Assembly: GCA_963727485.1 (NCBI GenBank)
Contig: CAVSGM010000002.1
Span: 198,854 to 262,853, forward strand
Direction: 5' to 3'
Length of the DNA stretch: 64,000 nt
From: an uncultured delta proteobacterium
Lineage (GTDB): Bacteria; Myxococcota; Myxococcia; SLRQ01
Part shown: piece after piece, positions 37,968 to 59,984 of the stretch
Layout: every line of letters starts with the position of its first letter
Position numbering within the stretch: position 1 is the first letter of the stretch
Position numbers and translations under genes: made by a program
The notes under the pieces: model-generated
What the model was told of the DNA's origin: nothing
What the model saw: only the letters and a program-made list of their open reading frames with translations
Database searches by the model: none

Positions 37968-37971
<4 letters not shown>
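37220..37971 (+). CDS. Lipoprotein (hypothetical), probable frame change in a poly-G run near 37250-37290
   Basis: Met in ORF 37193 frame (MRPTVPG...) followed by lipoprotein signal ...KRRAAAVARGLATALACLSLGAC and mature domain in ORF 37081..37971 frame; start uncertain. Confidence 0.45.
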
Positions 37972-39569
<1,598 letters not shown>

Positions 39570-39572
39570 GCG

Positions 39573-39845
39573 ATGGGTATGAAGGACAAGGCCACCAACC
39601 TCGGGATGAAGGTCATGAACGACATCATGACCGACCCCGAGAAGGCCCAGAAGCTGGCGAAGGCCATGGGGGCCTACCAGAAGGGGCGTGACTCGGTGCG
39701 CGAGAGCCAGGAGAAGCTCCTGCACTCGGTGGGGCTGCCCACCACCGGTGACGTCGAGGGCCTCACCAAGCGGATCTCGAAGGTCCGCCGACGCATCAAG
39801 GACGTGTCCAAGCGTCTGGGAAAGGTGCAGGGACGACTGGCTTGA
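39573..39845 (+). CDS. Small coiled-coil protein, possibly phasin-like (hypothetical)
   Basis: MGMKDKATNLGMKVMNDIMTDPEKAQKLAKAMGAYQKGRDSVRESQEKLLHSVGLPTTGDVEGLTKRISKVRRRIKDVSKRL; 4 nt downstream of the Hsp70 gene; functional call is weak. Confidence 0.4.
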   Translation: MGMKDKATNLGMKVMNDIMTDPEKAQKLAKAMGAYQKGRDSVRESQEKLLHSVGLPTTGDVEGLTKRISKVRRRIKDVSKRLGKVQGRLA

Positions 39846-39890
39846 CAGGCGGCCGAGCCAACACCATACTCCGCCGCCGTTTCACGGTTT

Positions 39891-39965
39891 GCGCGCGTAA
39901 CTCAGCGGTAGAGTGCCACCTTCACACGGTGGAAGTCGCTGGTTCGAACCCAGCCGCGCGTACCA
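39891..39965 (+). tRNA. tRNA-Val (anticodon CAC)
   Basis: GCGCGCGTAACTCAGCGGTAGAGTGCCACCTTCACACGGTGGAAGTCGCTGGTTCGAACCCAGCCGCGCGTACCA: 7-bp acceptor stem, D-stem ACTC/GAGT, anticodon stem CCACC/GGTGG with loop TTCACAC, T-arm GCTGG-TTCGAAC-CCAGC, encoded CCA. Confidence 0.9.
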
Positions 39966-40029
39966 TCTTCCCGCGCCCGCTCCCCCAGGTTGGGGGGCGG
40001 GCGCGGGCTTCTCGACGCCGCGCCTACTG

Positions 40030-41568
40030 ATGGCTGCTTCCGAGCGCAGGCCCCGGGCCCTGGTCGTCGACGACGACGACGGGATGCGTGGGAACATGGC
40101 CCACATCCTCGAGGCCGACGGCTTCGAGACGGTGGGCGCGGTCGACGGGATGGACGCCCTGGGGCGGCTCGAGCGCGCCAGCTTCGACATCGCCCTCCTC
40201 GACATCCAGATGCCGGGCATCGACGGCCTGGAGACGCTGAAGCGGATCCGGGAGAAGGCGCCGGAGGTCGAGGTGGTGATGGTCACGGTGCTCAAGGAGA
40301 TCCCCAAGGTCGTCGAGGCGATGAAGCTCGGGGCCTTCGACTTCCTCACCAAGGACTTCCGGGCCAGCGAGCTGCAGCTCAAGGCCCAGCAGGCCCTGAC
40401 CCACAGGCGCACCGCCCGGCAGATGGCCTACCTCCGCGACGAGGTGGAGCGACAGGCCCCCGGCGAGATGATCATGGGCGACGGGCCGGCGATGCGCGAG
40501 GTGTCGACCCTGGTCGACAAGGTGGCGCCGCTCCCCGCCACGGTGCTGGTCCTCGGCGAGAGCGGGACGGGCAAGGAGCTGCTGGCCAGGCGTCTCCACC
40601 GCATCTGGTCCGGGGGCGACAAGAAGAAGCCCTTCGTCACGGTGAACCTGGCGGCGATGCCCGCCAGCCTCATCGAGTCCCAGCTCTTCGGGCACGAGAA
40701 GGGGGCGTTCACCGGGGCCACCGAGCAGCGCCTGGGGAAGTTCGAGCTCGCCGACGGAGGCACGCTCTTCCTCGACGAGATTGGCGAGCTGCGCCTCGAT
40801 CTCCAGGCGAAGCTCCTGCGCGCCATCCAGGAGCGCGAGGTGGAGCGCCTCGGGGGCAAGCGTCCGGTGCCGGTGGATGTCCGGCTCATCACCGCCACCA
40901 ACGTCGACCTCAAGGAGGCGGTCCACGCCGGTCGCTTCCGTGAAGACCTCTACTACCGCATCAACGTCATCCCCATCCGGCTGCCGCCCCTGCGCGAGCG
41001 CATCGAGGACGTGCCGGTGCTGGCGCGGCACTTCGCCCGGAAGGCGGGGCAGCGGTTCAACCGGCCAGTGCCCGAGCTCACCGACACGGCGCTCGAGGTG
41101 CTGATGCGCTACCCCTGGCCCGGGAACGTCCGGGAGCTGGAGAACCGCATCGCCGGGCTGGTGGCGGTGCAGGACCGGCCGGTCATCGACGACGTGGACC
41201 TGCCCATCGAGTTCAGCTACCCGCGCTTCTACGACGAGGCCCGGCGCAAGAAGGCGGACGGGCTGGCGGTGGCGCTCACGGCCTTCGAGCGGTCGTTCAT
41301 CGCCATGACCCTGGAGAAGACGGGGTGGCACCGGAAGCAGGCGGCGGCGGAGCTGGGCATCGGCTACTCGACGCTGAAGAAGAAGCTCAAGAAGCTGGGT
41401 GCTCGCGCCGCCCGGGGGGCGCCACGCCGACGGGGACCCGGACGGCGACGACGACGAGGGGTGAGCCCTCACCGGCGCCGGAGGGACGTGGCGCGCGTGG
41501 CCGGCGTCGTCAGGCGGCGTCGGGGGACGACTCGGCCACCGGGGGACTGGCGCGCCGGGGCAGGGTGA
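40030..41568 (+). CDS. NtrC-family sigma-54-dependent response regulator (receiver, AAA+, HTH) with Arg-rich C-terminal extension
   Basis: MAASERRPRALVVDDDDG...DIALLDIQMPGIDG (receiver) ...GESGTGKELLA...GAFTGA...ELADGGTLFLDEIGEL...AAELGIGYSTLKKKLKKLG (HTH); the last about 55 aa are low-complexity and overlap the convergent kinase gene, so the true stop may be earlier. Confidence 0.85.
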   Translation: MAASERRPRALVVDDDDGMRGNMAHILEADGFETVGAVDGMDALGRLERASFDIALLDIQMPGIDGLETLKRIREKAPEVEVVMVTVLKEIPKVVEAMKLGAFDFLTKDFRASELQLKAQQALTHRRTARQMAYLRDEVERQAPGEMIMGDGPAMREVSTLVDKVAPLPATVLVLGESGTGKELLARRLHRIWSGGDKKKPFVTVNLAAMPASLIESQLFGHEKGAFTGATEQRLGKFELADGGTLFLDEIGELRLDLQAKLLRAIQEREVERLGGKRPVPVDVRLITATNVDLKEAVHAGRFREDLYYRINVIPIRLPPLRERIEDVPVLARHFARKAGQRFNRPVPELTDTALEVLMRYPWPGNVRELENRIAGLVAVQDRPVIDDVDLPIEFSYPRFYDEARRKKADGLAVALTAFERSFIAMTLEKTGWHRKQAAAELGIGYSTLKKKLKKLGARAARGAPRRRGPGRRRRRGVSPHRRRRDVARVAGVVRRRRGTTRPPGDWRAGAG

Positions 41569-43288
41569 CCACGAAGACGGCGCCGCCGCTGGGGCGGTTC
41601 CCGGCGGAGACGGTGCCCCCCTGCTCCTCGACGATGCGACGGACCACGGCGAGGCCGAGGCCGAGGCCGTTGCCCGAGCCCTTGGTGGTGCGGAAGGCGT
41701 CGAAGAGGTCGTGGAGGAGCGCCGGGGGGATGCCCGGGCCGTCGTCCTCGACCACCACGGTGACCCGGCTCGCCTCGAGGCCGACGCGGAGGGTGACGTG
41801 TCCCCCGTGGTCGCGGAGGGCGTCGAGGGCGTTCTCCACGAGGTTGCGCACGGCGCGCTCGAGGGCCAGGGCGTCGACCTCGACCATGGGGTCCCCGTCG
41901 CCCTCGACGACCAGGGCGAGGGAGATGCCGCGGGTGCGGGCGGTGGCGGTGAGGCTGCCCTCGAGGCGACGGAGGAGGTCGGGGAGGAGCACCGGCGCGG
42001 CCTCGGCCTCCCGGGGGTTGGCGAACTCCGAGAGGTCGGCGAAGAGCCGGTCGATGTAGGCCTGCTCCCGGTCGAGGTTCGCCTCGAGGTCTTGGCGGGT
42101 GGCCTCGGTCTCGGGGATGTCGAGGAAGGTCCGGACGTGGGTGATGAGGTGCTGGAACGGGCGCTTGAGATCGTGGGCCAGCCCGCCGGCGATGCGGCCG
42201 AAGAACGCCAGGCGCTCCTGGCGGCGAATCTCCTGGGTGAGGGTGCCGAGGTCCTCGGCCATGTGGTTGAAGCCCCGGGCCAGGTCGCCGAGCTCGTCGG
42301 GGCGGTCGTGGTGGACGCGGACGGTGAAGTCGCCCTCGCCGATGCGCCGGGCGCCGGCGGCGAGGCGCTCCACGGGGTTGACGATGGTCCGGGCGCCGAT
42401 GAAGGTCACGGTGCCCACGGCGAGGAGCGCCGCGAAGAGCACGATGAGCAGGCCGAGGCCGAGCGCCCGCGCCTGGGCGAAGGCGTCCCGCGCAGGTGTC
42501 TCCACCACGGCGACCCAGTCGGTGCCCGGGACGGAGGCGGCGGCGCCGACCACCTGCAGCCCGTCGCGGCGGTCATAGGTCGCCGACACGGCGCCGCCGT
42601 CCTTCTCCACCTCGTTCACGATCTTCGGGGTGGGGTAGGGGCGGCGCTGGATGGCGTAGACGAGCTCCTTGGCGATGCCGTGGGCGAAGAGGTGCCCGTG
42701 GCGGTCGACGAGGTAGGTGTAGCCGGTGCGACCGAGGCGCAGGTCGCGGACCATGGACCACAGCTCCAGGGTGTCGACCTCGGCGGCGAGCGCCCCCACG
42801 GTCCGCCCGAGGCGGTGGACCGGCACGGCCACGGCCATCACCGGCAGCAGGTCGTCGCCGATGACCACCTGGGTCACCTGGGGCTTGCCGGTGGCCAGGG
42901 TCTTGTCCGCGGCGCCGCGCACCAGCTTGGAGGGCCCCTTGTCCGGCAGCAAGGTGCTGAAGGTCCGTTTGCCCCCGTGGTCGAAGTCGACCAGGTAGCG
43001 CAGGGTGCGGTCCTCGAGGAGCGCCCGCGCCAGCACCCGGTCGGTCTCGGTGGCGTCGAGCCCGTTGCCCGGGCTCACCGCCGCCCCCACCGCCCGCACC
43101 ACGTCCACGCGCCCGCGGACGAAGGCCCCGACCCGCTTGGCCACCTCCGACGCCGCCGCCCGGGTCCCGGCGGTCACGCCCTCCTGCGCCCCGCGGATTC
43201 CGGACCAGGTGGCGTAGACCCCGTAGGCGCCGAGGGGAAAGAGCGTGGTGAGCGCCAGGAAGAGCAGGAGCTTGGCGCGCAGGCGCAT
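41510..43288 (-). CDS. Sensor histidine kinase (two TM segments, periplasmic sensor domain, HAMP, HisKA, HATPase)
   Basis: MRLRAKLLLFLALTTLFPLGAYGVY (TM1), about 270-aa extracytoplasmic region, LGLGLLIVLFAALLAVGTVTFIGA (TM2), ...FFGRIAGGLAHDLKRPFQ (H-box)...ENALDA...GNGLGLGLAVVRRIVE... Confidence 0.85.
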   Translation of the reverse strand: MRLRAKLLLFLALTTLFPLGAYGVYATWSGIRGAQEGVTAGTRAAASEVAKRVGAFVRGRVDVVRAVGAAVSPGNGLDATETDRVLARALLEDRTLRYLVDFDHGGKRTFSTLLPDKGPSKLVRGAADKTLATGKPQVTQVVIGDDLLPVMAVAVPVHRLGRTVGALAAEVDTLELWSMVRDLRLGRTGYTYLVDRHGHLFAHGIAKELVYAIQRRPYPTPKIVNEVEKDGGAVSATYDRRDGLQVVGAAASVPGTDWVAVVETPARDAFAQARALGLGLLIVLFAALLAVGTVTFIGARTIVNPVERLAAGARRIGEGDFTVRVHHDRPDELGDLARGFNHMAEDLGTLTQEIRRQERLAFFGRIAGGLAHDLKRPFQHLITHVRTFLDIPETEATRQDLEANLDREQAYIDRLFADLSEFANPREAEAAPVLLPDLLRRLEGSLTATARTRGISLALVVEGDGDPMVEVDALALERAVRNLVENALDALRDHGGHVTLRVGLEASRVTVVVEDDGPGIPPALLHDLFDAFRTTKGSGNGLGLGLAVVRRIVEEQGGTVSAGNRPSGGAVFVVTLPRRASPPVAESSPDAA

Positions 43289-44616
43289 CTAGTGGGCCTT
43301 GGCCGGGCGGATGGAGAGGGCCAGCGAGTAGGGCTCGGTCGAGTCGGGCTTGGGATGGACGAAGCGGAAGCGCTTGGAGGTGACGGCGACGCGGGGGAGC
43401 ACGCCCAGCGGCACGAAGGGCGGGTTCTCCGCGAGGCGCTTGCGGATGTCCTTCCAGGTCGCGCCCTTGGCGAGCATGGCGTCGAGGACCGGGTCGTGGT
43501 GGTGGCCGACGTTCAGGCGGGCGCTCGATGGCGACATACAACGTTGGGGCCCGAGCGGGTGGCGCAAGTTGATGAAGCTAGGCGGAGGTCGAGCTTCCAT
43601 GGGCTGGCCAAGTCGCTGCTTGGGCCACATGCTGTCACATGAGCCTGGACTCCTGCATCCGCTAGGCTCACGAAGAGGTCTTCGGTCGCCATGCGCGATC
43701 TCCTCGAGGTTGACGATCTCGAGGTCTAGCGGCTTGGTGATGGTCTTCAGCATCCTCTTGCACCCAGCGCGGAGGGGCGTGTCAGAACCGACTTGCCGAT
43801 GGACCCGTGCGGGCGTCGGGGCCAGCCCATAGGCGACCTGCCAACGCCCGGAAGGCAGGAGTGATGGCTCTGGCAATGCACCGCCGGACCGCCGTGACTT
43901 TGGAGTAGGGGCTCATCTTCGTTGAAGACGAGCACAGCCTCGGTGTTCCTCTGCAGTACGGAGTCACCAGTCCTACCCGAGGCAGCGAGCAGGCGATCGT
44001 GCTGTAGGGGGAGCCCGCCGGCCACGTCGGCGTCGCCGGCTAGCAGGTGGGCGAAGACGGCCACGCGGCCCCGAGACGTGTCGGACGACCATCAGCCGAG
44101 GGTCGTGCATGGGCTGCACGGCGCGCGAGACAGATCCGGCTGGGCGCTCTGGGAGCGACCCGGTACGGGCCTGCGCCAATCCACGCCCCGTCCCGACCTC
44201 TTCGGGCAACGGGTGCCCACGGGACCGCGTGCATGTCCGGTGTCGGCAGGTGCAGGATACAGCCTGCCGTTGCGCTGCCAGTGCCAGCTCTCGCTCTGGG
44301 ACCCCAGATGCAGCTCACGGCGGATCGCGCTGACGAGGTCGCGCGGCCGGATCGGGGAGCCGTCCTGGAAGTACCAGGTCGGCTTGAGGTTCGACCGCAC
44401 AAGGATTCTCGCTGGGGCAGTGCAGGGCAGCCGGATAAGACGTGATCCGAGTGGAGGCGCAATTAGGTCGAGCAGGGTGGCCGAGTCGCCGTTGTGGGGC
44501 ATGCCGGGAACGAGCGGCTCGAGAGGGCGGGGTGAGACCCACACGAGCGGTCGCTCCTGGCGCTGGCGGGCGTGGCCTGACACAGGCCGACAGGAGAAGC
44601 CCAAGCGCAAGCGCAA
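43289..44616 (-). other. Gene remnant/degraded region: intact-looking C-terminal about 80 codons (43289-43540) followed upstream by about 1.1 kb of lower-GC sequence with stops in all frames
   Basis: Reverse strand ...HHHDPVLDAMLAKGATWKDIRKRLAENPPFVPLGVLPRVAVTSKRFRFVHPKPDSTEPYSLALSIRPAKAH* is protein-like with high-GC codon use; upstream only short discontinuous ORFs (e.g. ...TWYFQDGSPIRPRDLVSAIRRELHLGSQSESWHWQRNG...); local GC about 58-62%. Confidence 0.35.
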
Positions 44617-44735
44617 GCGGTACAGTCCTTCGGTGCCTCACCGAGACAGCCTAGTCGTAGTCGCGCAGTCCGACGGAAGACAAAGGCCCCCGTCGCTGAC
44701 GAGGGCCTCTCGAATCTCAGAACGGTGACCGCGGG

Positions 44736-44804
44736 TTAGAAGCCGGCGAGGGCGTCGCAGGGGATGCGCTTCCGATTCCGCTTGTTGAGGGGCTTCTTGA
44801 CCAT
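44736..44804 (-). CDS. 22-codon cationic small ORF (MVKKPLNKRNRKRIPCDALAGF) immediately downstream of the radical SAM gene; candidate peptide
   Basis: ATG preceded by AAGGAAGG at about 7 nt; 69 nt to TAA; single Cys; about 120 nt after the radical SAM stop on the same strand. No homology could be checked. Confidence 0.3.
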   Translation of the reverse strand: MVKKPLNKRNRKRIPCDALAGF

Positions 44805-44925
44805 GGCGAACCTTCCTTTCGGGAAGTGGGGGGACTTCGTTGGGGGGGACTTCAGGGGGCAGAGGTCGGGCTTGCAGGTCCCCACACGTGGGGAGCCTCC
44901 CGGCCCCGGCGTCGGACAAAGGCGG

Positions 44926-46254
44926 CTAGGCCGCCACTTCCTCCGAGGGCATCCGGCCCTCGTAGAACTCGTCGAGGTAGCGCCGCTTCAGGGTCTCGCG
45001 GCCCACCGTGTCGAAGTAGTCGTGCTCACAGCTCACGCCGAGGGTGCCGTTGCGGCGGTAGGTCGTCGCCCGGCAACCGCCGGCGCACACGGGCAGGTAC
45101 TCGCACTGGCCGCAGTCCTTCACCGGGTCGAGGCTCTCGAGGAGCTCGACGCGGGGCAGCCAGCGGTCGTCGGTGATCCGGCCGACGGCCATCTTCGGAT
45201 CGCCCACCAGGACGTCGCACTTGTAGAGGTAGCCGCCGGCGTCGACGAGCAGGTACTGGTCCATGTGGAGGCCACAGGGGCCGAGGCCGAACTCGGGCTC
45301 GGGGCTGAGGCCCGAGCTCACCGCCTTCATCTGGAGGTGGACCAGGCCGTCGGGGTCGGCGTCGGAGATGCGGGTGGCGCAGTCGCCGTCGCCGCGTCCG
45401 TCGAGGACCGGCTTGAACTTCAGCTCGCTGATGGCGTCGGCGAGCCCCTCGCGGCGCAGCACGTCGGCGAGCTCGCCGTACGCGTGCTCGAGGCCCGCGG
45501 GCACGTTGCTGCCGATGTGGATGCGCACCCGCCCGGCGACCGCCTTGAGGTTCGCGAGGATCTGGTCCCAGGAGCCCGTCCCGTCCTTGCGAACCCGGCT
45601 CTGGTCGTGGTGGTGCTTGGGCCCGTCGAGGGTGACCTTGACCGACTCGAGCCCCAAGGGCGCCATGGCGTCGACGAAGGGCCGGTCGAGGAGGGCGCCG
45701 TTGGTGATGATCCGGCAGCTGAAGGCGCGACCGTCCTCGGCGAGCTCGCGCTGGAAACGCTCGGCGGTGCGGAGGATGAGGGGCTTCTTGAGGAGCGGCT
45801 CGCCGCCGAAGTAGGTGAGCTCCAGGGTGTGGAGGTCGTAGCGGGCCATCCGGCGCCGGACCCAGCCGTGGAGCGCCTGCTCCACCGTCTTGCCCATCCC
45901 CGGCCCGCTGGGGCCACCCTCGGCCTCGTAGCAGTAGGGGCACCCGAAGTTGCAGTTCTCGGTGACCAGCACCCGCAGGCGCAGCACTCCGTCGCCCTGC
46001 TTCATCCCCAGCATGAAGTCGCGGAGGGCGGCGTCGTCGGCGACCTCGTCCTCGACGAGGAAGCCCTCGGCCGAAAGGTAGTCGACCTCCTCCTGCTCGA
46101 GGGCGCTCGCCGGCGGCCCGCCCGACAGGGACCCGACCCAGCCGAGGGCCCGGTCGTCGAGGCCGACCAGGTTGTCGGTCAGGGTGTTGTAGAGGACGTG
46201 CTCCCCGGGGAGTGGGAAGTCTCGGATGAGGACGTGGAACCGGGTGAGCTGCAT
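44926..46254 (-). CDS. Radical SAM/SPASM-domain protein (peptide-maturase-like), 442 aa
   Basis: MQLTRFHVLIRDFPLPGEHVLYNTLTD... about 95-aa N-terminal domain, then VTENCNFGCPYCYE (CxxxCxxC), GGEPLL; C-terminal auxiliary-cluster motifs C-x18-C and CGQCEYLPVCAGGC (Cx2Cx5Cx3C) plus terminal VSC; GGGAG RBS. Confidence 0.85.
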   Translation of the reverse strand: MQLTRFHVLIRDFPLPGEHVLYNTLTDNLVGLDDRALGWVGSLSGGPPASALEQEEVDYLSAEGFLVEDEVADDAALRDFMLGMKQGDGVLRLRVLVTENCNFGCPYCYEAEGGPSGPGMGKTVEQALHGWVRRRMARYDLHTLELTYFGGEPLLKKPLILRTAERFQRELAEDGRAFSCRIITNGALLDRPFVDAMAPLGLESVKVTLDGPKHHHDQSRVRKDGTGSWDQILANLKAVAGRVRIHIGSNVPAGLEHAYGELADVLRREGLADAISELKFKPVLDGRGDGDCATRISDADPDGLVHLQMKAVSSGLSPEPEFGLGPCGLHMDQYLLVDAGGYLYKCDVLVGDPKMAVGRITDDRWLPRVELLESLDPVKDCGQCEYLPVCAGGCRATTYRRNGTLGVSCEHDYFDTVGRETLKRRYLDEFYEGRMPSEEVAA

Positions 46255-46299
46255 GGGGTGTCTCCCTGAATCGCCCCCCGAGAGAGCAGGGAGCGTGCC

Positions 46300-46660
46300 A
46301 CCCGCCAGGGGGCTCCAAATCGAGCCCTCCCGACTCGGCTCAGCGGTCCAAGCTGGAAATCTCAATTGATTTCAACCACCTGTCACCAAGGCTCAAAATA
46401 GAGCCCCACGTGGCTACCCTCGCCCGAAGCGACACAAGCCACCGGAATCACTGTGAATCGCCTGGACCAGGCCCCGAATGGGGCTTATCCCGACCCCAGG
46501 GGACTCTTCCAAAAAACACCTGTGATCACAAGGCGTTGGAAAGAGGGTGGCGACCCCGCCGGGGCACGTCGCCCAGCTTCGGGAAAGGGCTCCATTTGGA
46601 GCCCTTTCGTCCCGGGGCGGGGCCAGATCACGGGGAAATACCAATAAAAACCGTGATTTG
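46300..46660. promoter_or_regulatory. AT-richer intergenic control region with multiple palindromes between the radical SAM gene and the divergent small-protein/kinase operon
   Basis: GGGCTC-caaatc-GAGCCC (about 46310-46327), GGCTC-aaaata-GAGCC (about 46390-46405), GAAAGGGCTCCA-tt-TGGAGCCCTTTC (about 46583-46608), TGTGATCACA (about 46521-46530), TCAATTGA, ATCACGG-N18-CCGTGAT; codon usage in short ORFs here is atypical. Confidence 0.3.
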
Positions 46661-46741
46661 GGCGCAGCCGCTCCTAGGCGAGCCCTCAGGTCTCACCCTA
46701 GAGCCAGTGGTGGCACGCCGCTGGCAAAAGAGACCAGTGCA

Positions 46742-46990
46742 ATGTCCAGGCTCGCCAAGGTCAAGGTCGTCGAGCTCGACGGGAAAAAGGTGTTCCTCCA
46801 CTTCTACGAGGACGTCTCGACCCTCGGGACGCCCCGCTACTCGGTGGAGATCCGCTTCGGCCCCGAGGACCGCGTCGTCTTCGACGGCCCCAGCATCTCG
46901 GACCTCGAGGCGACCACCCAGGCCTGCCTCCCTGCCACCTGGGCCAGCCGGCGGATGCTCGCCGGCGCGGCCTACGGCGCCCCCCACTGA
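46742..46990 (+). CDS. Small protein (82 aa, hypothetical) translationally coupled to the downstream histidine kinase
   Basis: MSRLAKVKVVELDGKKVFLHFYEDVSTLGTPRYSVEIRFGPEDRVVFDGPSISDLEATTQACLPATWASRRMLAGAAYGAPH; stop overlaps the kinase ATG (TGATG). Confidence 0.5.
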   Translation: MSRLAKVKVVELDGKKVFLHFYEDVSTLGTPRYSVEIRFGPEDRVVFDGPSISDLEATTQACLPATWASRRMLAGAAYGAPH

Positions 46991-47865
46991 TGCAACCCCT
47001 CGCCTCCCAGCCGACGCCCTCGCGTCCCTACCGCGCCGATCCCATGCCCCGCGACCCCGAGCTTCACGCCGCCCGCCTCGTCGAGCTGGGCAGCCTGGTA
47101 CCGGGGCTGGTGCACGAGCTCTCGAACCCGGCCGCGGTCCTCCGGGGCAACCTCGGCGCCGTCGTCGACCACGCCGACACCCTGGGCCGACTGGTCAACG
47201 GCCTCGACCAGGGGCAGGACGCCTCGGCCCTGCGCCGGGACCTCGAGCTCGATGACACCGCCATCGACCTCGCCGAGCTGGTGGGCGAGTCCGCCGGCGC
47301 CCTCGACGAGCTGGTCTCCCTCCTCGGCGACATCCGTCACTACGCCGCCGGCGCCGAGGCCGAGGCCGAGGCCGATCTCGCCTCGGCCGTCGCCGCCGCC
47401 CTGCGCCTCGCCACCTACGAGACCAAGTACCGGGCCGCCGTGAGCGTCGGCGTCGGCGACCTCCCTCGGATCGCCCTGTGCCCCGTCCACCTGGTGCAGC
47501 TGGTGCTGGCCCTCATCCTCAACGCCGCCCAGGCCCTCGCCGACCACCGGCAGCTCCACGGCGACCTGGGCCACGTGTCCCTCTCGGCCAGGGCCGAGGG
47601 CGACGACCTCGTCGTCCTCGAGGTCCGCGACGACGGCCCCGGCGTGTCCCCCGACCTCGCCGACCGCGTCTTCGAGCCCGGGGTCACCTCGCGGCCCGGG
47701 GCCAGGGGCATGGGCCTGTACCACGCCCGGAACCTCCTCGAGCGCGCCGGTGGCGCCCTCGTCCTCCAACCGCCCCGTGGCGGGGGCGCCGTCTTCGTCG
47801 CGCGCCTGCCCGCCCTCTCCGACGACATTCACAGTGAGGCCATCGGTCCTGTCCACAAGACATAG
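46990..47865 (+). CDS. Soluble histidine kinase core (HisKA plus HATPase, no TM or recognisable sensor domain)
   Basis: ...ARLVELGSLVPGLVHELSNPAAVLRGNLG (H-box near N-terminus)...ILNAAQAL...LEVRDDGPGVSPDLADRVFEPGVTSRPGARGMGLYHARNLLERAGGAL. Confidence 0.75.
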   Translation: MQPLASQPTPSRPYRADPMPRDPELHAARLVELGSLVPGLVHELSNPAAVLRGNLGAVVDHADTLGRLVNGLDQGQDASALRRDLELDDTAIDLAELVGESAGALDELVSLLGDIRHYAAGAEAEAEADLASAVAAALRLATYETKYRAAVSVGVGDLPRIALCPVHLVQLVLALILNAAQALADHRQLHGDLGHVSLSARAEGDDLVVLEVRDDGPGVSPDLADRVFEPGVTSRPGARGMGLYHARNLLERAGGALVLQPPRGGGAVFVARLPALSDDIHSEAIGPVHKT

Positions 47866-47989
47866 GGTCTTGTGACCATGCCCCCCCGCAGAGGTCGATG
47901 GCCGGGAACCCCGCCGTGAATACGGCGGGGTTCTCTTTTTCCGTCCCCCGCGCCCGTCGGACGAGGGGAGCGCAAGGCGCGGCCTGCGC

Positions 47990-48379
47990 CTACGCCTCGG
48001 GCGTCTCGGTCTCCCGCTTGCGCAGCATGTACTTCACCTTGCGCATCAGCCCGTCGAGGTCGAAGGGTTTCTCGATGAAGTCCTCGGCCCCGAGCTCCAG
48101 GCCGAGCTGGCGGCTGAAGGGGTCGCCCCGGGCCGAGAGGAAGAGGACCGGGATCGCCCGGGTCTGGTCGTCGGCCTTCAGCGCCCGGCACACGTCCCGG
48201 CCGTCCATCCGCGGCATGTTCACGTCGAGGACCACCAGGTCGGGTTGGTCGCTCTGGGCGAGGGCGAGGCCCTCGACGCCATCGGCCGCGGTGATCACCG
48301 TGAAGCCGTGGCGCTCGGCGGTGCGACGGAAGATCGTGCGCAGCTCGGCGTCGTCGTCGACGAAGAGGAGGCGAGCCAT
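47990..48379 (-). CDS. Single-domain (CheY-like) response regulator
   Basis: MARLLFVDDDAELRTIFRRTAERHGFTVITAADGVEGLALAQSDQPDLVVLDVNMPRMDGRDVCRALK...IPVLFLSARGD...; 129 aa; convergent with the kinase core. Confidence 0.8.
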   Translation of the reverse strand: MARLLFVDDDAELRTIFRRTAERHGFTVITAADGVEGLALAQSDQPDLVVLDVNMPRMDGRDVCRALKADDQTRAIPVLFLSARGDPFSRQLGLELGAEDFIEKPFDLDGLMRKVKYMLRKRETETPEA

Positions 48380-48451
48380 GGCGGGCATTATAGGGATCGA
48401 TCGCGTCCGCGTCTCTCCATCGGTCGCGCTCCGGTGATACGCTCCCGGGCC

Positions 48452-49693
48452 ATGCACCGCCACCTCGCCTGGCTCTGCGCCGCCACCGTCGTCTTCGCCG
48501 CCTGCAGCAAGGGGAACAGCGTCGTCCCCACGCCGGCCCTCAAGGCCCAGGCCGCCTACCACCAGGGCAACGCCAAGCTCGTCGCCGGCGACTTCAAGGC
48601 GGCGCTGGTGCTCCTGCGCCGATCGGTGCGCCTCGATCCGGGGCTGGTCCAGGCGCACCAGGCCCTGGGCGAGACCTACCTCGGCCTGCTCCGGGGCCCG
48701 GAGGCCGAGGAGCAGTTCCGCCTCGCTCTCAAGATCCAGCCCAAGAAGTACCTGGCGTGGGAGGGCCTCGGCGACGCGCTCCGCCTCGAGCACCAGCTCG
48801 ACAAGGCCCTCGACGCCTACGCCCACGCCGCCACCCTCGACCAGACCCTCCCCGATCCCTGGACCTCCCAGGGCGAGGTGCTCCGGGACCAGGACGCCTA
48901 CGCCGACGCCGCCGCCGCCTTCGAGAAGGCCGCGGCCCGCGCCTCGGGAAAGGACGTCGCCACCCAGTGGACCAGCGCCGGCGGGGCCTGGGGCAAGGCC
49001 GGCAAGTGGGACCGCGCCGCCGCCAATCTGGCCAAGGCCGCCGCCGCGACCCCCAAGGCCGCCAGCGCCTGGGACCGCCTCGGTCAGGCCCGGGCCCACG
49101 CCGGGGACATGAAGGGCGTGGCCACCGCCTACGCCCGGGCCGTCGCCGTCTCGCCCGAGGACCCGGTCCTCTGGGAGCTCCTCGGCGCCGCCCGCCGGGC
49201 CCTCGGTGACGCCGCCGGGGCCCGCAAGGCCTACGAGCGGGCTCGAGACCTGGCGCCGCACCGCGCCTCGGTCTGGGAGGGGCTCGGGCGCCTCGACCTC
49301 GACGCCAAGGACCTCCCCGCCGCCACCCGGGACGCCCACCGCGCCCTCGACGCCCTGGGGAGCACTGGCCCGTCCCAGGGCAAGAAGGGCGCCGCCGTCG
49401 CCGCCGAGGTCGAGGACGACAACGTGGTCGCCAACGTCGCCAATCTCCTCGCCAAGGTCGGCGACCACGACCGCGCCGCGGGCCTCTACCGGATGCTCCT
49501 CGGAGGCAAGGGCGACCACGATCCCCAGCTCTGGATCGCCCTGGCCCACGAGGACACCGCCCTCGGCGACAAGGCGGCCGTGGCCCTCGACTGCGCGACC
49601 GCCCGGAAGGACGCCGGAACGCAGGCGCTCACCGGCCTCGAGGTCTGCCCCAAGGCGCCCAAGCCGTCGCCGGGCAAGTCCCCGGGCAAGTAG
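48452..49693 (+). CDS. TPR-repeat lipoprotein
   Basis: MHRHLAWLCAATVVFAACSKGN (lipobox), then TPR-like units ...YHQGNAKLVAGDFKAALVLLRRSVRLDPGLVQAHQALGETYLGL... Confidence 0.75.
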   Translation: MHRHLAWLCAATVVFAACSKGNSVVPTPALKAQAAYHQGNAKLVAGDFKAALVLLRRSVRLDPGLVQAHQALGETYLGLLRGPEAEEQFRLALKIQPKKYLAWEGLGDALRLEHQLDKALDAYAHAATLDQTLPDPWTSQGEVLRDQDAYADAAAAFEKAAARASGKDVATQWTSAGGAWGKAGKWDRAAANLAKAAAATPKAASAWDRLGQARAHAGDMKGVATAYARAVAVSPEDPVLWELLGAARRALGDAAGARKAYERARDLAPHRASVWEGLGRLDLDAKDLPAATRDAHRALDALGSTGPSQGKKGAAVAAEVEDDNVVANVANLLAKVGDHDRAAGLYRMLLGGKGDHDPQLWIALAHEDTALGDKAAVALDCATARKDAGTQALTGLEVCPKAPKPSPGKSPGK

Positions 49694-49702
49694 ACGCCGG
49701 AC

Positions 49703-50389
49703 CTAGTGGACCCGGCGGTAGACGCCGACCACCACGCCCAGGATCTGGGTGTCCCGGAAGTCCTGCTGGTGGACGTAGATGGGCTGCATCGCCGCGTTCG
49801 CCGGCTGGAAGCGGATGCGGTCGCCCTCGGGGAAGTAGCGCTTCACCGTGGCGTCGCCGTCGATCATGGCGACCACGATGTCGCCGGCGTCGGCGGTGAG
49901 CTGCTTCTTCACGAAGATGTAGTCGCCGTCGAGGATGCCGTCGTCGATCATGGACTCACCGCTGACCCGGAGGCCGAAGACCTTCTTGGTGGTCCCCCCG
50001 AGGAAGAAGCTGTCCACGTGCACCGTGTCGGTGACGTTCTCCTCGGCGAGGATCGGGCTCCCGGCGGCGACCCGCCCGAGGACCGGGATCGCGACCAGGT
50101 CGCCCTCGGGGAAGATCGCCGGCACCGCCACGTCGACCGCGGTGGGGTGGGGCGCCTCGCCGAGGGCGCGCAGGGCCGGGGCGGTGAGGGCGAGAGCCCG
50201 GGACTTCTTGTCGCCACGCTCGATGTACCCCTTGCGCTCGAGGGCCTTGAGGTGGTCGTTGACGCCGTTGGTGGACCTGATGCCGAAGGCGGTGCCAATC
50301 TCGCGGATGGTCGGGGGGTAGCCGCTCCCGTTGATGCTCTGGTGGATGAAGCCGAGGATGTCCCGCTGCCGCTGGGTGAGCTCCTGCAT
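49703..50389 (-). CDS. lexA: LexA repressor
   Basis: [58 protein letters not shown]...[24 protein letters not shown]...[17 protein letters not shown] (S24 peptidase Ser/Lys region). Confidence 0.9.
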
Positions 50390-50502: not shown

Positions 50503-51582
50503 ATGCGACCGGCGACCCGCCACCTGGGCCACGGGGTCAGGGCCACTCTCCGCCACCTGCCCCTGGTGGCCCTCCAGGCCTCCGTGGACCTCACCGCGAG
50601 CCTGGCGGCCCTGCTCCCGGCGGTGGTCGCCGCGGTCCTGGTGGTGCGCCACGCCGTCACGCTGGTCTCGGCCCTGCCCCCGACCCGCAACCCCCTGGCC
50701 CTCGCCGCGGCGGAGCTGCTGGGCTACCTCCTCTCGGCGCGCTTCCTGATGCCGGTGGTGGGCCTCGCCGCGGCCGGGGCGCTGCTGGTGGCGATGATGC
50801 GGGTCCTCTATCTCACCGGCGCCCTGGGCCTCCTCGCCGGCGACCTCCGCGCGGGTGGCCGGGCGCCGGCCGGCGGCTTCATGGACGCGGTGGTCGCCCG
50901 GTTCCCGGCGGCCCTCGCCGTGGTCGCCCTCATGGGGGTCGCGGGCCTCGCGGTGGCGGGCCTGGTCGCGGGCCTGGTGGGCGCCGCCGGCGCCGTGTTC
51001 GCCGCCGGGCCCTCGGTGGCGAGCGCCGCGGGCCTCGCCCTCGCCGGGAGCCTGACGGTGGTCCTGCTCGCGATCTTCGAGGCCGTCCGGCACCTCGCCC
51101 TGGTCCGCACCGTGGCCCTCGGCGAGGGCCCGGGTGTGGCCACCTACGAGGCCGGGGCCCTGGTCCTCCGGCGTCCCGGGACCCTCCTCGCCCTGGGGGT
51201 CCTGCTCCTTGGCGTCGAGCTGGCCGTGGCGGTGATCTTCGCCAGCGCCACCGGGATGCAGGGCCTCCTCCCCGCCGCCGCCGCGGCCACCGGATGGGCC
51301 GTCGGCGCCCGGGTCGTAGGCGAGGTCACGGCCACCGTGGCCCTCGCCGTGGTCGGCGTGGTCGCCTGGGGCGCCCTGGTGTCCCTGGCCCTCGATGACG
51401 CCGGGGCGCTCCCGCCGGACCCCGAGCCCGCGCCCCGGTCGACCCCGCCCGCACCCGCGCCGGCGGTCCCGGCGCGGCGGGTGTCCCTCGCCCGGCCCGT
51501 GTCGGAGGTGTGGCCGCCGGCGCCGGCGCCTCAGGCCGACGCCCCGGGCGACGACGCCTCAGACGACGACCCCTCGGCGTAG
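50503..51582 (+). CDS. Polytopic membrane protein (hypothetical), Ala/Leu/Val-rich
   Basis: Multiple hydrophobic segments (LVAGLVGAAGAVFAAG, LTVVLLAIFEAV, VALAVVGVVAWGALVSLAL); low-complexity, so the exact frame/start is uncertain. Confidence 0.45.
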   Translation: MRPATRHLGHGVRATLRHLPLVALQASVDLTASLAALLPAVVAAVLVVRHAVTLVSALPPTRNPLALAAAELLGYLLSARFLMPVVGLAAAGALLVAMMRVLYLTGALGLLAGDLRAGGRAPAGGFMDAVVARFPAALAVVALMGVAGLAVAGLVAGLVGAAGAVFAAGPSVASAAGLALAGSLTVVLLAIFEAVRHLALVRTVALGEGPGVATYEAGALVLRRPGTLLALGVLLLGVELAVAVIFASATGMQGLLPAAAAATGWAVGARVVGEVTATVALAVVGVVAWGALVSLALDDAGALPPDPEPAPRSTPPAPAPAVPARRVSLARPVSEVWPPAPAPQADAPGDDASDDDPSA

Positions 51583-52463
51583 CACCCGAGCCGGTCCCGG
51601 AAGAACTTCTCGAGGCGCAGGTTGAGCAGCTCCGGCTGCTCGATGGGCGCCGCGTGGCTCCCCTTGGGGATCACCAGCAGCTCGGCGTCGGGGATGAGGT
51701 CGGCCATCTCCTCGGAGAGCCACATGGGCGTGAAGGTGTCGAGCTCGGCGCCGACCACCAGGGTGGGCACGTCGACGTGCCCCAGGTGGTCCCGGGTGCT
51801 GTGGGCCGCGGCGTGGGAGAGGAGCCGCACGAAGACCTCCGGGTCCATCTTCCCCAGGTGGTCGAAGTAGGGCTGCATGTCCTCCCAGCGGATGAGCGAG
51901 CGGTTCACCTCCCCGGCGAGGAAGGCGAGGAGCCAGGCCATCCGCGAGGGGAGCAGCGCCCGCCACAGCCCCACCACCGCCCCGGGGAAGCCTTCGAGGA
52001 TCCGGTTGATGTAGGGCAGGCCCTCCTTGAGGGCGGCGGTGCCGTGGAAGGTGTCCAGGGGCCGGCCGTAGCTGCCGCAGACCAGCACCAGGGCGGCGAC
52101 GCGCCCGGGCATGCGCCGGTGGGCCTCGAGGACCACCTGCACCCCCACCGAGTGCCCGGCGAGGATGGCGCGCTCGCTGCCGGCGGCGTCGAGGACGGCG
52201 CCGAGGTCGCCCACCAGGTCCTCGATGGCCATGCGGTCGAGGTCCCGGGGCGTCGCCGAGCGTCCGTGGCCCCGGTAGTGCCAGCGGATCACCCGGTGCC
52301 GGTCGGCGAAGGCGGGCACCACGTACTTCCACACGAAGCCGTCGCAGCCGATGCCGTCGCAGAGCACCAGGTCCGGTGCCGTGGGGCGGTCGGGCCCGGC
52401 GATGGTGTAGTAGATCGACGTCCCGTCGGACGCCTGGCAGAACCCCTCGGTGTAGCGCTCCAT
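51531..52463 (-). CDS. Alpha/beta-fold hydrolase
   Basis: MERYTEGFCQASDGTSIYYTIAGPDRPTAPDLVLCDGIGCDGFVWKY...AILAGHSVGVQVVLEA (GHSxG nucleophile elbow). Confidence 0.8.
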   Translation of the reverse strand: MERYTEGFCQASDGTSIYYTIAGPDRPTAPDLVLCDGIGCDGFVWKYVVPAFADRHRVIRWHYRGHGRSATPRDLDRMAIEDLVGDLGAVLDAAGSERAILAGHSVGVQVVLEAHRRMPGRVAALVLVCGSYGRPLDTFHGTAALKEGLPYINRILEGFPGAVVGLWRALLPSRMAWLLAFLAGEVNRSLIRWEDMQPYFDHLGKMDPEVFVRLLSHAAAHSTRDHLGHVDVPTLVVGAELDTFTPMWLSEEMADLIPDAELLVIPKGSHAAPIEQPELLNLRLEKFFRDRLGCYAEGSSSEASSPGASA

Positions 52464-57446: not shown

Positions 57447-57469
57447 CGGCGCGCGGAGGAGGGCGGCGG

Positions 57470-58902: not shown

Positions 58903-59088
58903 GGGCTATCTCCTAGGTGATCACGCTACCTGCCTGGAGTGGCCGCGGTCAAAGCGGCCTCTTGACGGACGCCACCGCTGACTTCCTTGGGTGACGGTCG
59001 CCGAGGCAGCTCCCGAGCCGACCGCCGTAGCTCGGTACAGCGCTCCACCGCCGGTGTCACGAGCCGCGAGGGAGTAGCCTGCCCCCGG

Positions 59089-59925: not shown

Positions 59926-59984
59926 CGCCCGCGAGGATGCCGAGGCCCGGGATGCCGGTCGACCATCCCGTGCCCCCGGCCCGC

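What the first reader, a model, noticed from the sequence alone, without database searches (positions are those of the whole stretch)
39891..49700. tRNA-Val-flanked segment with accessory character (two two-component systems, radical SAM module, degraded tract) between housekeeping blocks
tRNA genes are frequent insertion points for genomic islands (established knowledge). The roughly 10 kb after tRNA-Val carries regulators, the radical SAM/peptide module, a lower-GC degraded tract and a TPR lipoprotein, ending at lexA. No integrase or direct-repeat copy of the tRNA 3' end was recognised, so island status is unproven.
Basis: inference. Interest (0 to 1): 0.45.

Follow-up and report, generated by a model that had tools for sequence, protein, structure and literature searches.

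The report
Ancestral peptide-signalling cassette, not an island
The 8.4 kb after tRNA-Val is not an inserted mobile island. It is an old, natively composed gene cassette (a radical-SAM enzyme, a 22-residue peptide, a binding lipoprotein, sensor kinases and a sigma-54 activator) that related myxobacteria have kept, trimmed or lost at the same chromosomal position.

Summary
There is no integrase and no copy of the tRNA 3' end.

The island reading is not supported. Codon usage and dinucleotide signature are native. A conspecific contig has the same gene order. More distant relatives from two clades carry the cassette at the same site with the same junctions (tRNA-Val then the response regulator; REC or kinase then TPR-LexA). 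Other relatives have an empty site, remnants of the cassette, or a transporter there. This pattern fits ancestral presence with differential loss.

Genes g24 to g29 form one functional unit. An NtrC-type regulator, two diverging sigma-54 promoters and three GGCTC-N6-GAGCC palindromes appear to control a radical-SAM/SPASM enzyme, a 22-aa peptide, a family-5 binding lipoprotein, a dCache kinase, and g28 plus a second kinase.

The "degraded tract" is the binding-protein gene, carrying 11 frameshifts. Its allele differs from the conspecific one at dS about 1.1, against 0 to 0.13 in the flanking genes. Function and peptide chemistry are inferred, not shown.

The parts
39842..39870 (+). Sigma-70-like promoter (TTGACA-17-CATACT) just upstream of tRNA-Val
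   Evidence: consensus scan only
39891..39965 (+). tRNA-Val(CAC), with encoded CCA. This is the left landmark of the variable slot.
   Evidence: The orthologous tRNA occupies the same position in L001, L169, L171, L172, L174 and L081.
39970..40007 (+). GC-rich hairpin directly after the tRNA (CCCGCGCCCGCTCCCCC-aggtt-GGGGGGCGGGCGCGGG). It leaves no room for an att site before the response-regulator start codon.
   Evidence: Read from the sequence
40030..41568 (+). g24: NtrC-type sigma-54-dependent response regulator (REC, AAA+ domain with GAFTGA at residue 225, HTH_8). It is the inferred activator of the cassette promoters.
   Evidence: Orthologues at 63-68% occupy the same site in L171 and L174. 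The best metagenome homologues sit next to homologous rSAM genes.
41510..43288 (-). g25: membrane histidine kinase (dCache_1, HAMP, HATPase_c). Its start codon directly follows the stop codon of the binding-protein gene.
   Evidence: The same binding-protein/kinase coupling is seen in L174 and L087.
43289..44641 (-). The 'degraded tract': a family-5 solute-binding lipoprotein gene (lipobox LLLSAC) broken by 11 frameshifts. Its last 82 codons (43289-43537) remain an intact ORF.
   Evidence: Intact orthologues exist in L084, L082, L087 and L174.
44672..44706 (-). Hairpin followed by a T-rich tail downstream of the peptide ORF. Probably a partial terminator or attenuator; it is conserved in L084 and L081.
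   Evidence: Read from the sequence; inference
44736..44804 (-). 22-aa precursor-like ORF MVKKPLNKRNRKRIPCDALAGF, with ribosome-binding site GGAAGG
   Evidence: Conserved counterparts lie at the same position in L081, L084, L082 and L087, and a longer relative of the peptide occurs in L089-L099.
44926..46254 (-). g27: radical SAM/SPASM peptide maturase (CX3CX2C at residues 101-108; seven-Cys SPASM motif at residues 327-409)
46285..46300 (-). Sigma-54 (-24/-12) promoter TGGCACgctccCTGCT facing the rSAM gene
   Evidence: Conserved in L081, L084, L082 and L002.
46311..46603 (.). Three GGCTC-N6-GAGCC palindromes (46311-46326, 46390-46405, 46588-46603). They are the putative binding sites (UAS) for the activator.
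   Evidence: These are the only three matches in the 64 kb, and their positions are conserved in orthologous loci.
46711..46726 (+). Sigma-54 promoter TGGCACgccgcTGGCA facing g28-g29
46742..46990 (+). g28: conserved 82-aa protein of unknown fold and function, translationally coupled to g29
46990..47865 (+). g29: cytoplasmic histidine kinase with no sensor domain (HATPase_c)
47904..47935 (+). Intrinsic terminator between the convergent genes g29 and g30
47990..48388 (-). g30: stand-alone receiver (REC) protein. Orthologues persist in L171, L172 and L082.
48452..49693 (+). g31: TPR lipoprotein. It belongs to the conserved backbone next to LexA, not to the cassette.
49703..50389 (-). LexA, the right-hand backbone landmark

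Best explanation
**What it is.** The 8.4 kb between tRNA-Val and the TPR-LexA pair (39966-48400) is a chromosomally native, vertically inherited regulatory and peptide-maturation cassette. It was already at this position in the common ancestor of a group of Myxococcota. Since then it has been differentially retained (the window, L081, L174/L175, L002), trimmed (L171, L172) or lost (L001, L169). It is not a tRNA-targeted integrative island.

**Proposed working model (inferred).**
1. The dCache-HAMP kinase g25, together with the translationally coupled family-5 binding lipoprotein, senses a periplasmic ligand, possibly a peptide.
2. g25 phosphorylates the NtrC-type regulator g24.
3. g24 binds the three GGCTC-N6-GAGCC palindromes and activates two diverging sigma-54 promoters.
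4. One promoter drives the operon rSAM/SPASM enzyme, 22-aa peptide, binding protein, kinase. This would give positive feedback. The peptide is presumably cross-linked at its invariant Pro-Cys.
5. The other promoter drives g28-g29. The g29 kinase probably feeds the stand-alone receiver g30.

**State of the binding-protein gene.** In this genome it carries 11 frameshifts. The conspecific genome carries a very divergent allele. This locus therefore exchanges alleles by homologous recombination and may be decaying here.

**What the confidence covers.** The stated confidence refers to the structural claim (a native ancestral cassette, not an integrative island). The regulatory circuit on its own would rate about 0.5, and the peptide-sensing loop about 0.2.
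For: **Shown: not an island.**
- No integrase, no att repeat and no flanking repeats.
- Native codon usage and dinucleotide signature.
- Identical gene order in the conspecific contig L081.

**Shown: same site in both clades.**
- In L174/L175 tRNA-Val is followed directly by the response regulator (68%), then the kinase (45%), then the binding protein.
- L002 reads rSAM (53%), g28, kinase, TPR, LexA.
- Remnants: response regulator plus REC in L171, and REC alone in L172.
- L169 has an empty site.
- The HSP70 and LexA trees place cassette-bearing loci in both clades.

**Shown: one functional unit.**
- Both sigma-54 promoter matches and all three palindromes in the 64 kb fall within 46285-46726.
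- Both are conserved in position across loci whose rSAM is 53-99% identical.
- The best metagenome homologues of the response regulator (about 50%) lie directly upstream of homologous rSAM genes, followed by a short Cys peptide, a binding protein, a kinase and a g28-like gene. Each has its own sigma-54 promoter and its own palindromes.
- The peptide is conserved at the same position.

**Shown: the binding-protein gene.**
- SBP_bac_5 hit on the L081 allele.
- Full-length alignment with 11 frameshifts.
- dS 1.13 and dN/dS 0.38, against dS of 0-0.13 in the neighbouring genes.
Against: - The phylogeny rests on one or two proteins from metagenome-assembled contigs, not on a genome tree.
- Most cassette-bearing contigs are truncated, so no relative other than L081 shows the complete cassette between both landmarks.
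- Different cargo in the same slot (an SCFA transporter, SulP) shows that the site also gains genes. Repeated gain of the cassette by homologous recombination therefore cannot be excluded.
- The regulatory circuit is inferred from motifs and gene linkage. No exporter or leader peptidase is encoded nearby. The binding protein's hypervariability is not mirrored by the peptide, which differs only by A19V between the conspecifics.
- The 11 frameshifts could be a local consensus artefact at a strain-variable gene.
Confidence: 0.7

Rival explanations
1. This is a classical tRNA-targeted genomic island. It was integrated by a site-specific recombinase at tRNA-Val and has since lost its integrase and att sites.
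For: The segment is adjacent to a tRNA. Its distribution among relatives is patchy, with an empty site in L169 and alternative cargo in L001, L171 and L172. It also contains a lower-GC tract.
Against: - No integrase or transposase and no tRNA 3'-end repeat in the window or in six related loci.
- Native codon usage and dinucleotide signature.
- The response-regulator start codon lies 65 nt after the tRNA, behind the tRNA's own hairpin.
- Both junctions are conserved across two deep clades, and cassette proteins have diverged about as much as the core flanks.
- The lower-GC tract is a decayed cassette gene, not a mobility remnant.
Confidence: 0.07
2. The slot is a recombination hot spot. The cassette, or parts of it, has been gained more than once by homologous recombination between conserved flanks (tRNA-Val/HSP70 and TPR/LexA), so its presence in both clades reflects lateral exchange among relatives and not ancestry.
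For: - Between two conspecific genomes, dS rises from 0-0.003 (LexA, TPR) to 0.035-0.13 in cassette genes and 1.13 in the binding-protein gene, with sharp boundaries. Allelic import at this locus is therefore demonstrated.
- Unrelated cargo occupies the same slot in other lineages.
Against: - Identities of the cassette response regulator and REC to the clade-B orthologues (62-68%) track the flanking HSP70 and LexA identities (62-72%). There is no sign of recent transfer between clades.
- The partial remnants (response regulator plus REC; REC alone) are more simply explained as deletion products.
Confidence: 0.2
3. The 'degraded tract' is not a pseudogene. It is an intact, highly divergent binding-protein allele whose 11 frameshifts are consensus errors, caused by strain heterogeneity at this hypervariable gene in a metagenome assembly. 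This rival concerns only that sub-feature and is compatible with the best explanation.
For: - After frame correction the tract aligns full-length with no stop codons, with 62% amino-acid identity and dN/dS of 0.38. That is the pattern expected of a gene that evolved under selection.
- Several independent assemblies break at or within this gene: L002, L082, L084, L174 and L175.
Against: - None of the 11 indels lies in a homopolymer run.
- The rest of the 64 kb shows long uninterrupted ORFs of up to 1723 codons.
- Corrected GC3 (0.76) is lower than in the L081 allele (0.83) and the intact L084 gene (0.87), as expected for decay.
Confidence: 0.3

Closest known systems
Geopeptide radical SAM maturase family (NCBIfam TIGR04280, a 'hypothetical equivalog') and, more broadly, rSAM/SPASM RiPP maturases such as PapB, CefB and the SCIFF maturase
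   Same: - The best NCBIfam hit of g27 is TIGR04280 (222 bits, full-length alignment).
- g27 has the CX3CX2C motif and a seven-Cys SPASM domain (TIGR04085, 48.9 bits against a cut-off of 27).
- A very short Cys-containing peptide is encoded next to the enzyme.
   Different: - The score is far below the family cut-off (222 against 400). The more distant soil relatives also fail it (250).
- None of the peptides matches any NCBIfam or Pfam model.
- The cassette carries a dedicated binding protein, a dCache kinase, an NtrC-type regulator, g28 and sigma-54 promoters. I found no description of this arrangement in the searchable literature.
- The chemistry is unknown.
Autoinduced RiPP and pheromone loci controlled by two-component systems, for example nisin NisRK or Bacillus ComQXPA pherotypes (from general knowledge, not tested here)
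   Same: - A short ribosomal peptide, its modifying enzyme and a sensor kinase/response regulator pair are encoded together.
- The promoter of the biosynthetic operon appears to be the regulator's target.
- The sensing component is highly polymorphic within a species while the flanks are conserved.
   Different: - The regulator is an NtrC-type, sigma-54-dependent activator.
- Sensing would go through a family-5 binding lipoprotein plus a dCache kinase.
- No exporter or leader peptidase is encoded nearby.
- The peptide itself is nearly invariant between the two conspecific alleles (A19V), unlike true pherotype systems.
- No experimental evidence of secretion or autoinduction exists.
tRNA-associated integrative genomic islands
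   Same: The segment lies directly 3' of a tRNA gene and is present or absent among related genomes.
   Different: There is no integrase, no att duplication and no compositional signature. The junctions are deeply conserved and the cassette has co-diverged with the core genes.

Membership tests
tRNA-associated integrative genomic island | A tRNA gene at one boundary | tested here: met
   tRNA-Val(CAC) at 39891-39965
tRNA-associated integrative genomic island | An integrase or recombinase gene (or a remnant) inside the element | tested here: not met
   Every intact ORF in 39966-49693 is assigned a family or is a conserved cassette protein. The only broken gene is a family-5 binding protein. No integrase or transposase family was hit.
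tRNA-associated integrative genomic island | A direct repeat of the tRNA 3' end at the distal boundary (attL/attR) | tested here: not met
   The only match within 3 mismatches is the tRNA itself. The best partial matches, 12/16 and 14/20, are at chance level. None was found in six related loci.
tRNA-associated integrative genomic island | Atypical base composition or codon usage relative to the host | tested here: not met
   Intact genes have GC3 of 0.94-0.98. The synonymous-codon likelihood does not differ from the rest of the window (p = 0.90). Delta* is 31.9, among the lowest in the window. Only the broken binding-protein gene and the promoter region are lower in GC.
tRNA-associated integrative genomic island | An insertion relative to close relatives that have an intact empty site | tested here: inconclusive
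   An empty site exists in L169 and other cargo occupies the slot in L001. However, the conspecific L081 has the cassette, both clades carry it at the same junctions, and remnants occur in L171 and L172. This favours loss.
Radical SAM/SPASM RiPP maturase with cognate precursor | A radical SAM core with CX3CX2C | tested here: met
   PF04055, 55.4 bits against a cut-off of 29.5. CNFGCPYC at residues 101-108.
Radical SAM/SPASM RiPP maturase with cognate precursor | A C-terminal SPASM auxiliary-cluster domain | tested here: met
   TIGR04085, 48.9 bits against a cut-off of 27. Motif CX13GX4C...CX2CX5CX3C...C at residues 327-409.
Radical SAM/SPASM RiPP maturase with cognate precursor | An adjacent, conserved short precursor ORF | tested here: met
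   A 21-22-aa ORF with a basic N-terminus and an invariant Pro-Cys lies directly downstream in the window, L081, L084, L082 and L087. Peptides of about 30 aa occur in L089-L099.
Radical SAM/SPASM RiPP maturase with cognate precursor | A demonstrated post-translational modification of the peptide | not testable with these tools
   This needs co-expression and mass spectrometry.
Geopeptide maturase (NCBIfam TIGR04280) | A score at or above the curated cut-off of 400 bits | tested here: not met
   222 bits for g27 and 250 bits for the L099 homologue
Geopeptide maturase (NCBIfam TIGR04280) | A partner peptide recognised by a curated precursor model | tested here: not met
   No NCBIfam or Pfam hit for any of the eight peptides, even at an E-value limit of 10
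Sigma-54-dependent two-component regulon (NtrC type) | A regulator with REC, an AAA+ sigma-54 interaction domain (GAFTGA) and a DNA-binding HTH | tested here: met
   PF00072, PF00158 and PF02954. GAFTGA at residue 225.
Sigma-54-dependent two-component regulon (NtrC type) | -24 GG / -12 GC promoters upstream of the target operons | tested here: met
   The only two matches in the 64 kb, at 46285-46300 (-) and 46711-46726 (+), each face a cassette operon. Two or more matches occurred in 6 of 100 shuffles. Both are conserved in five orthologous loci.
Sigma-54-dependent two-component regulon (NtrC type) | Upstream palindromic activator sites | tested here: met
   The three GGCTC-N6-GAGCC sites are the only ones in the 64 kb (1 of 100 shuffles reached 3). 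Their positions are conserved in orthologues, and a different palindrome fills the same role in the distant cassettes. Binding by g24 is inferred.
Sigma-54-dependent two-component regulon (NtrC type) | Actual dependence on RpoN and on g24 | not testable with these tools
   This needs genetics and transcript mapping.
Family-5 periplasmic solute-binding protein (SBP_bac_5) | A Pfam PF00496 match above the gathering score, and an intact reading frame | tested here: inconclusive
   The L081 allele scores 38.0 against 32.4. L087 and L174 orthologues have weak or faint precomputed hits. The window copy aligns full-length but needs 11 frameshift corrections.

The most novel reading that the evidence does not exclude
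The cassette may be a previously undescribed, widespread class of sigma-54-wired peptide signalling circuit, found in Myxococcota and in other soil bacteria. In this reading, a radical-SAM-modified 22-aa peptide is sensed outside the cell by a dedicated family-5 binding lipoprotein coupled to a dCache kinase. That signal feeds back through an NtrC-type activator. The receptor component would be kept as very old, divergent alleles within a species (dS above 1, against no more than 0.13 in the flanks), giving a pherotype-like or kin-discrimination polymorphism.
Probability: 0.15. Interest if true: 0.7.

Novelty: new variant of a known kind. Interest (0 to 1): 0.35.

Why it matters
- **For genome scanning.** tRNA adjacency together with regulators and a lower-GC tract mimicked an island. 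Synteny across a graded series of relatives instead showed an ancestral cassette being eroded.
- **For biology.** The analysis defines a conserved, uncharacterised cassette of a radical-SAM enzyme and a short peptide that comes with its own sensor set and sigma-54 promoter architecture. It gives directly testable parts: promoter motifs, a candidate activator site, a precursor with an invariant Pro-Cys, and a candidate receptor.
- **For population genetics.** It also exposes one gene with extreme within-species allelic divergence.

Tried and rejected
- **Raw ORFs of the degraded tract.** Pfam found nothing, and blastn against plasmids found no match. The tract was identified only after the conspecific allele in L081 was reconstructed.
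- **Short peptides.** NCBIfam and Pfam gave no hits.
- **Literature.** Searches for 'geopeptide', 'TIGR04280', rSAM plus sigma-54, and myxobacterial rSAM RiPP plus two-component plus solute-binding found nothing relevant.
- **Source contig.** A look-up through the 100%-identical rSAM protein found no record.
- **Metagenome scan with the response regulator.** It found no close relatives (at most 52% identity), so it added no synteny. It did reveal the linkage between the regulator and the rSAM gene.
- **g28.** Only two close homologues were found. The AlphaFold model (pLDDT 77.6) has no significant PDB match; the best E-value is 0.3. Its function remains unknown.
- **SCFA transporter.** tblastn of the L001 transporter against the window found no remnant.
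- **Repeat search around the segment.** It returned only low-identity GC-rich coding coincidences.
- **HSP70-like gene in L087.** It lies next to the analogous cassette but is only 27-28% identical to g22, so I treated the adjacency as coincidence.
- **Diversity-generating retroelement.** I considered this as the cause of the binding protein's hypervariability and rejected it because no reverse transcriptase lies nearby.


Full report
**1. Observation**

The window has about 72% GC, many sigma-54 activators and myxobacterial-type proteins, so it comes from a member of the Myxococcota. ARAGORN and Rfam place a single tRNA, tRNA-Val(CAC), at 39891-39965. I called genes from third-position GC bias and assigned them with Pfam and NCBIfam. 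The order is:

- UvrD-like helicase, an unknown gene, an HSP70-like protein (37968-39569) and an 88-aa protein;
- tRNA-Val;
- g24, an NtrC-type response regulator (40030-41568, +);
- g25, a dCache-HAMP histidine kinase (41510-43288, -);
- a tract with weak coding signal (43289-44641);
- a 22-aa ORF (44736-44804, -);
- g27, a radical SAM/SPASM enzyme (44926-46254, -);
- a 487-nt low-GC intergenic region;
- g28, 82 aa (46742-46990, +);
- g29, a sensor-less kinase (46990-47865, +);
- g30, a REC-only protein (47990-48388, -);
- g31, a TPR lipoprotein with lipobox VFAAC (48452-49693, +);
- LexA (49703-50389, -).

**2. Tests of the island hypothesis**

- *Mobility genes.* No integrase or transposase family is hit by any ORF in the segment.
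- *att sites.* The 25-nt 3' end of the tRNA has no second copy within 3 mismatches anywhere in the window. Ungapped and local alignments of 16-45-nt 3' fragments give only chance-level matches. No flanking direct or inverted repeats exist. The tRNAs of six related loci also lack such repeats.
- *Space for an att site.* The response-regulator start codon lies 65 nt after the tRNA, behind a GC-rich hairpin.
- *Composition.* The intact genes of the segment have GC3 of 0.94-0.98. Their synonymous-codon likelihood is indistinguishable from the rest of the window (Mann-Whitney p = 0.90). The dinucleotide signature distance of 39966-48400 is 31.9, among the lowest in the window.

**3. Synteny series**

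*The conspecific contig.* L081 is a conspecific metagenome contig, 99-100% identical over LexA, TPR, REC and the tRNA. It has exactly the same gene order from g23 to beyond LexA.

*More distant relatives.* Loci anchored on LexA and on the HSP70-like gene all keep HSP70 followed by tRNA-Val on one side and, where the contig reaches that far, TPR-LexA on the other. L174/L175 end before that point. The loci differ in what lies between:

| Locus | HSP70 identity to window | Content of the slot |
|---|---|---|
| L169 | 73% | Nothing |
| L001 | 77% | A short-chain fatty-acid transporter |
| L172/L173 | 69% | SulP plus an orthologue of the REC protein (62%) |
| L171 | 72% | SulP, an orthologue of the response regulator (63%), the REC orthologue (66%) and an unknown gene |
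| L174/L175 | 68% | tRNA-Val followed directly by the response regulator (68%), the convergent dCache kinase (45%) and the binding-protein gene, then the contig ends |
| L002 | not on contig (LexA 64%) | rSAM (53%), g28 (53%), kinase, TPR, LexA |

*Phylogeny.* An HSP70 neighbour-joining tree and the LexA identities give two clades. One holds the window, L001 and L169 (67-72% GC). The other holds L174 with L171 and L172, and L002 joins it on LexA (59-64% GC).

*Conclusion.* The cassette therefore occurs in both clades at the same site, in the same orientation and with the same junction partners. Its proteins have diverged about as much as the flanking core proteins. Two lineages keep only fragments. 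The simplest reading is ancestral presence with repeated partial or complete loss. The same slot has also taken up other cargo in some lineages. TPR belongs to the backbone, so the variable block ends near 48.4 kb.

**4. What the segment is: one cassette**

*Promoters and palindromes.* The intergenic region 46255-46741 holds the only two sigma-54 promoter matches in the 64 kb. TGGCACgctccCTGCT faces the rSAM gene and TGGCACgccgcTGGCA faces g28. It also holds the only three GGCTC-N6-GAGCC palindromes. The same two promoters, and three to five such palindromes at corresponding positions, are present in L081, L084, L082 and L002 (rSAM 53-99% identical). This holds even though the spacer sequence has diverged. 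A canonical TGGCAC-N5-TTGC promoter plus one palindrome is present in L087 (rSAM 37%).

*The regulator.* g24 carries GAFTGA and an HTH_8 domain.

*Independent linkage evidence.* The best metagenome homologues of the regulator (about 50% identity) are followed on the same strand by a homologous rSAM gene (28-34%) in nine loci. In L099 they are also followed by a short peptide, a lipoprotein, a g25-like kinase and a g28-like gene. Each of these loci has its own sigma-54 promoter (TGGAAC-N5-TTGC), and several carry repeated GGCCAA-N4-TTGGCC-like palindromes. The regulator, kinase, rSAM enzyme, peptide, binding protein and g28 thus form an old functional unit.

**5. The peptide and the enzyme**

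- g27 has CX3CX2C at residues 101-108 and a complete seven-Cys SPASM motif.
- Its best family hit is the geopeptide maturase TIGR04280, but at 222 bits against a cut-off of 400. It is a relative, not a member.
- Directly downstream, behind a GGAAGG ribosome-binding site, lies MVKKPLNKRNRKRIPCDALAGF.
- Counterparts at the same position are MVKKPQNKKARKAFPCDTISF (L084), MIKKPTKKTETRRRAPCQLWLG (L082) and MKIKKSVRASTRQAMPCSCAVG (L087). In L081 the peptide is the same as the window's with A19V plus a 1-nt insertion.
- All share a basic N-terminus and an invariant Pro-Cys near the C-terminus.
- The more distant cassettes encode peptides of about 30 aa of the form MKIxxIKKA..AKPxGFCxxxxDD.
- No curated model recognises any of these peptides.
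- A hairpin with a T-rich tail follows the peptide ORF and is conserved. I infer that it acts as an attenuator that enriches the precursor transcript.

**6. The 'degraded tract'**

*Identity of the gene.* In L084, L082, L087 and L174 the gene after the peptide is an intact lipoprotein of about 415-450 aa. It is translationally coupled to the dCache kinase. The L081 allele scores above the Pfam gathering threshold for SBP_bac_5.

*State of the window copy.* A frameshift-aware alignment of the L081 protein to window 43289-44660 covers the whole protein at 61.6% identity. It needs 11 frameshifts, none of them in a homopolymer, and shows no stop codon in the corrected frame. The N-terminal lipobox (LLLSAC) is recognisable, and the last 82 codons are an intact ORF. 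Corrected GC3 is 0.76, against 0.83 for L081 and 0.87 for L084.

*Divergence from the conspecific allele.* Nucleotide identity between the two conspecific genomes collapses from 99-100% to 50-67% exactly over this gene. Nei-Gojobori estimates for this part of the gene are dS 1.13, dN 0.43 and dN/dS 0.38. For comparison, dS in the flanking genes is:

| Gene | dS |
|---|---|
| LexA | 0 |
| TPR | 0.003 |
| rSAM | 0.035 |
| Kinases | 0.06-0.07 |
| Response regulator | 0.13 |

*Interpretation.* The two alleles are therefore far older than the surrounding DNA and evolved mostly under purifying selection. One of them must have arrived by homologous recombination, or both have been maintained for a long time. 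The window copy has either been inactivated recently by indels or is locally mis-assembled. Only the reads can decide.

**7. Mechanism**

The mechanism is inferred; the evidence for each individual part is given above.

1. A periplasmic signal is captured by the binding lipoprotein and passed to the dCache-HAMP kinase g25.
2. g25 phosphorylates g24.
3. g24 binds the palindromes and activates both sigma-54 promoters.
4. This raises expression of the rSAM-peptide-binding protein-kinase operon, giving positive feedback. It also raises expression of g28-g29, whose kinase probably signals to the stand-alone receiver g30.

Family-5 binding proteins typically bind peptides (general knowledge), which makes the modified peptide an attractive ligand. 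Two points weaken the autoinducer idea. No exporter or leader peptidase is encoded in the cassette. And the peptide is almost invariant where the binding protein is hypervariable.

**8. Comparison and novelty**

As an island, the finding is ordinary and not supported.

The cassette itself belongs to a known kind, a radical-SAM/SPASM enzyme with a short precursor, and is closest to the geopeptide family. It falls outside the curated family. It also comes with a conserved sensing and sigma-54 regulatory set for which I found no description in the searchable literature. That literature search covers only open-access papers, so absence there is weak evidence.

g28 has a confident small beta-sheet plus two-helix model but no significant structural match.

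**9. Verdict**

- The island interpretation is partly supported: accessory and variable, yes; an integrative island, no.
- Best explanation: an ancestral cassette with differential loss, at a locus that is active in recombination.
- Interest is moderate to low for the finding as posed, and moderate for the cassette and its hypervariable receptor gene.

Noticed in passing
window 57451-59087 (g40 at 57470-58420, g41 at 58417-58854): These two genes have the most atypical codon usage in the window (GC3 0.905 and 0.877; lowest synonymous-codon likelihood). The window has 1.6 kb here where the conspecific L081 has about 0.7 kb. The products carry a PKD-like domain and a truncated FGE-sulfatase domain. 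This is a better candidate for a recent gain or loss than the tRNA-Val segment.
   Followed up: partly
window 59089-61404 (g42): This is a pyruvate kinase with a long C-terminal extension (771 aa). It is only 74% identical in protein, and 91% in DNA, to the L081 counterpart, while nearby genes are 94-100% identical. It is a second divergence hot spot between the conspecific genomes.
   Followed up: no
L001 3269-5046: The short-chain fatty-acid transporter that occupies the slot in L001 is split over two reading frames: Pfam positions 1-219 in one frame and 243-453 in another. It is either a pseudogene or an assembly frameshift.
   Followed up: no
L002 (contig end at the rSAM gene), L082, L084, L174, L175 (contig ends in the binding-protein gene): Five independent metagenome contigs end within or right next to the binding-protein gene of the cassette. 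This would be expected if strain-level hypervariability of the gene breaks assemblies. The evidence is anecdotal.
   Followed up: no
window 39891-39965 compared with L001, L169, L171, L172 and L174: The tRNA-Val of the window and of L081 encodes its CCA end and has a G1-U72 wobble pair at the top of the acceptor stem. The orthologous tRNAs of the relatives have G1-C72 and no encoded CCA.
   Followed up: no
window 41510-41568: The convergent genes g24 and g25 overlap by 59 nt at their 3' ends. The last 60 or so residues of g24 form an Arg-rich, low-complexity tail that orthologues (480-490 aa) lack. This is also where the alignment to L081 has 10 gap columns.
   Followed up: no
window 52521-54047 and 51531-52463: A sigma-54 activator with a PocR sensor domain and an alpha/beta hydrolase lie next to LexA-g33. 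The arrangement is conserved in L002 and L172, so it is part of the stable backbone to the right of the slot.
   Followed up: no
L085 7862-11775: A homologue of the rSAM enzyme at 38% identity sits in a different context: a 43-aa ORF followed by a Ser/Thr protein kinase, in place of the binding protein and histidine kinase. The enzyme family is therefore paired with more than one kind of signalling partner.
   Followed up: no
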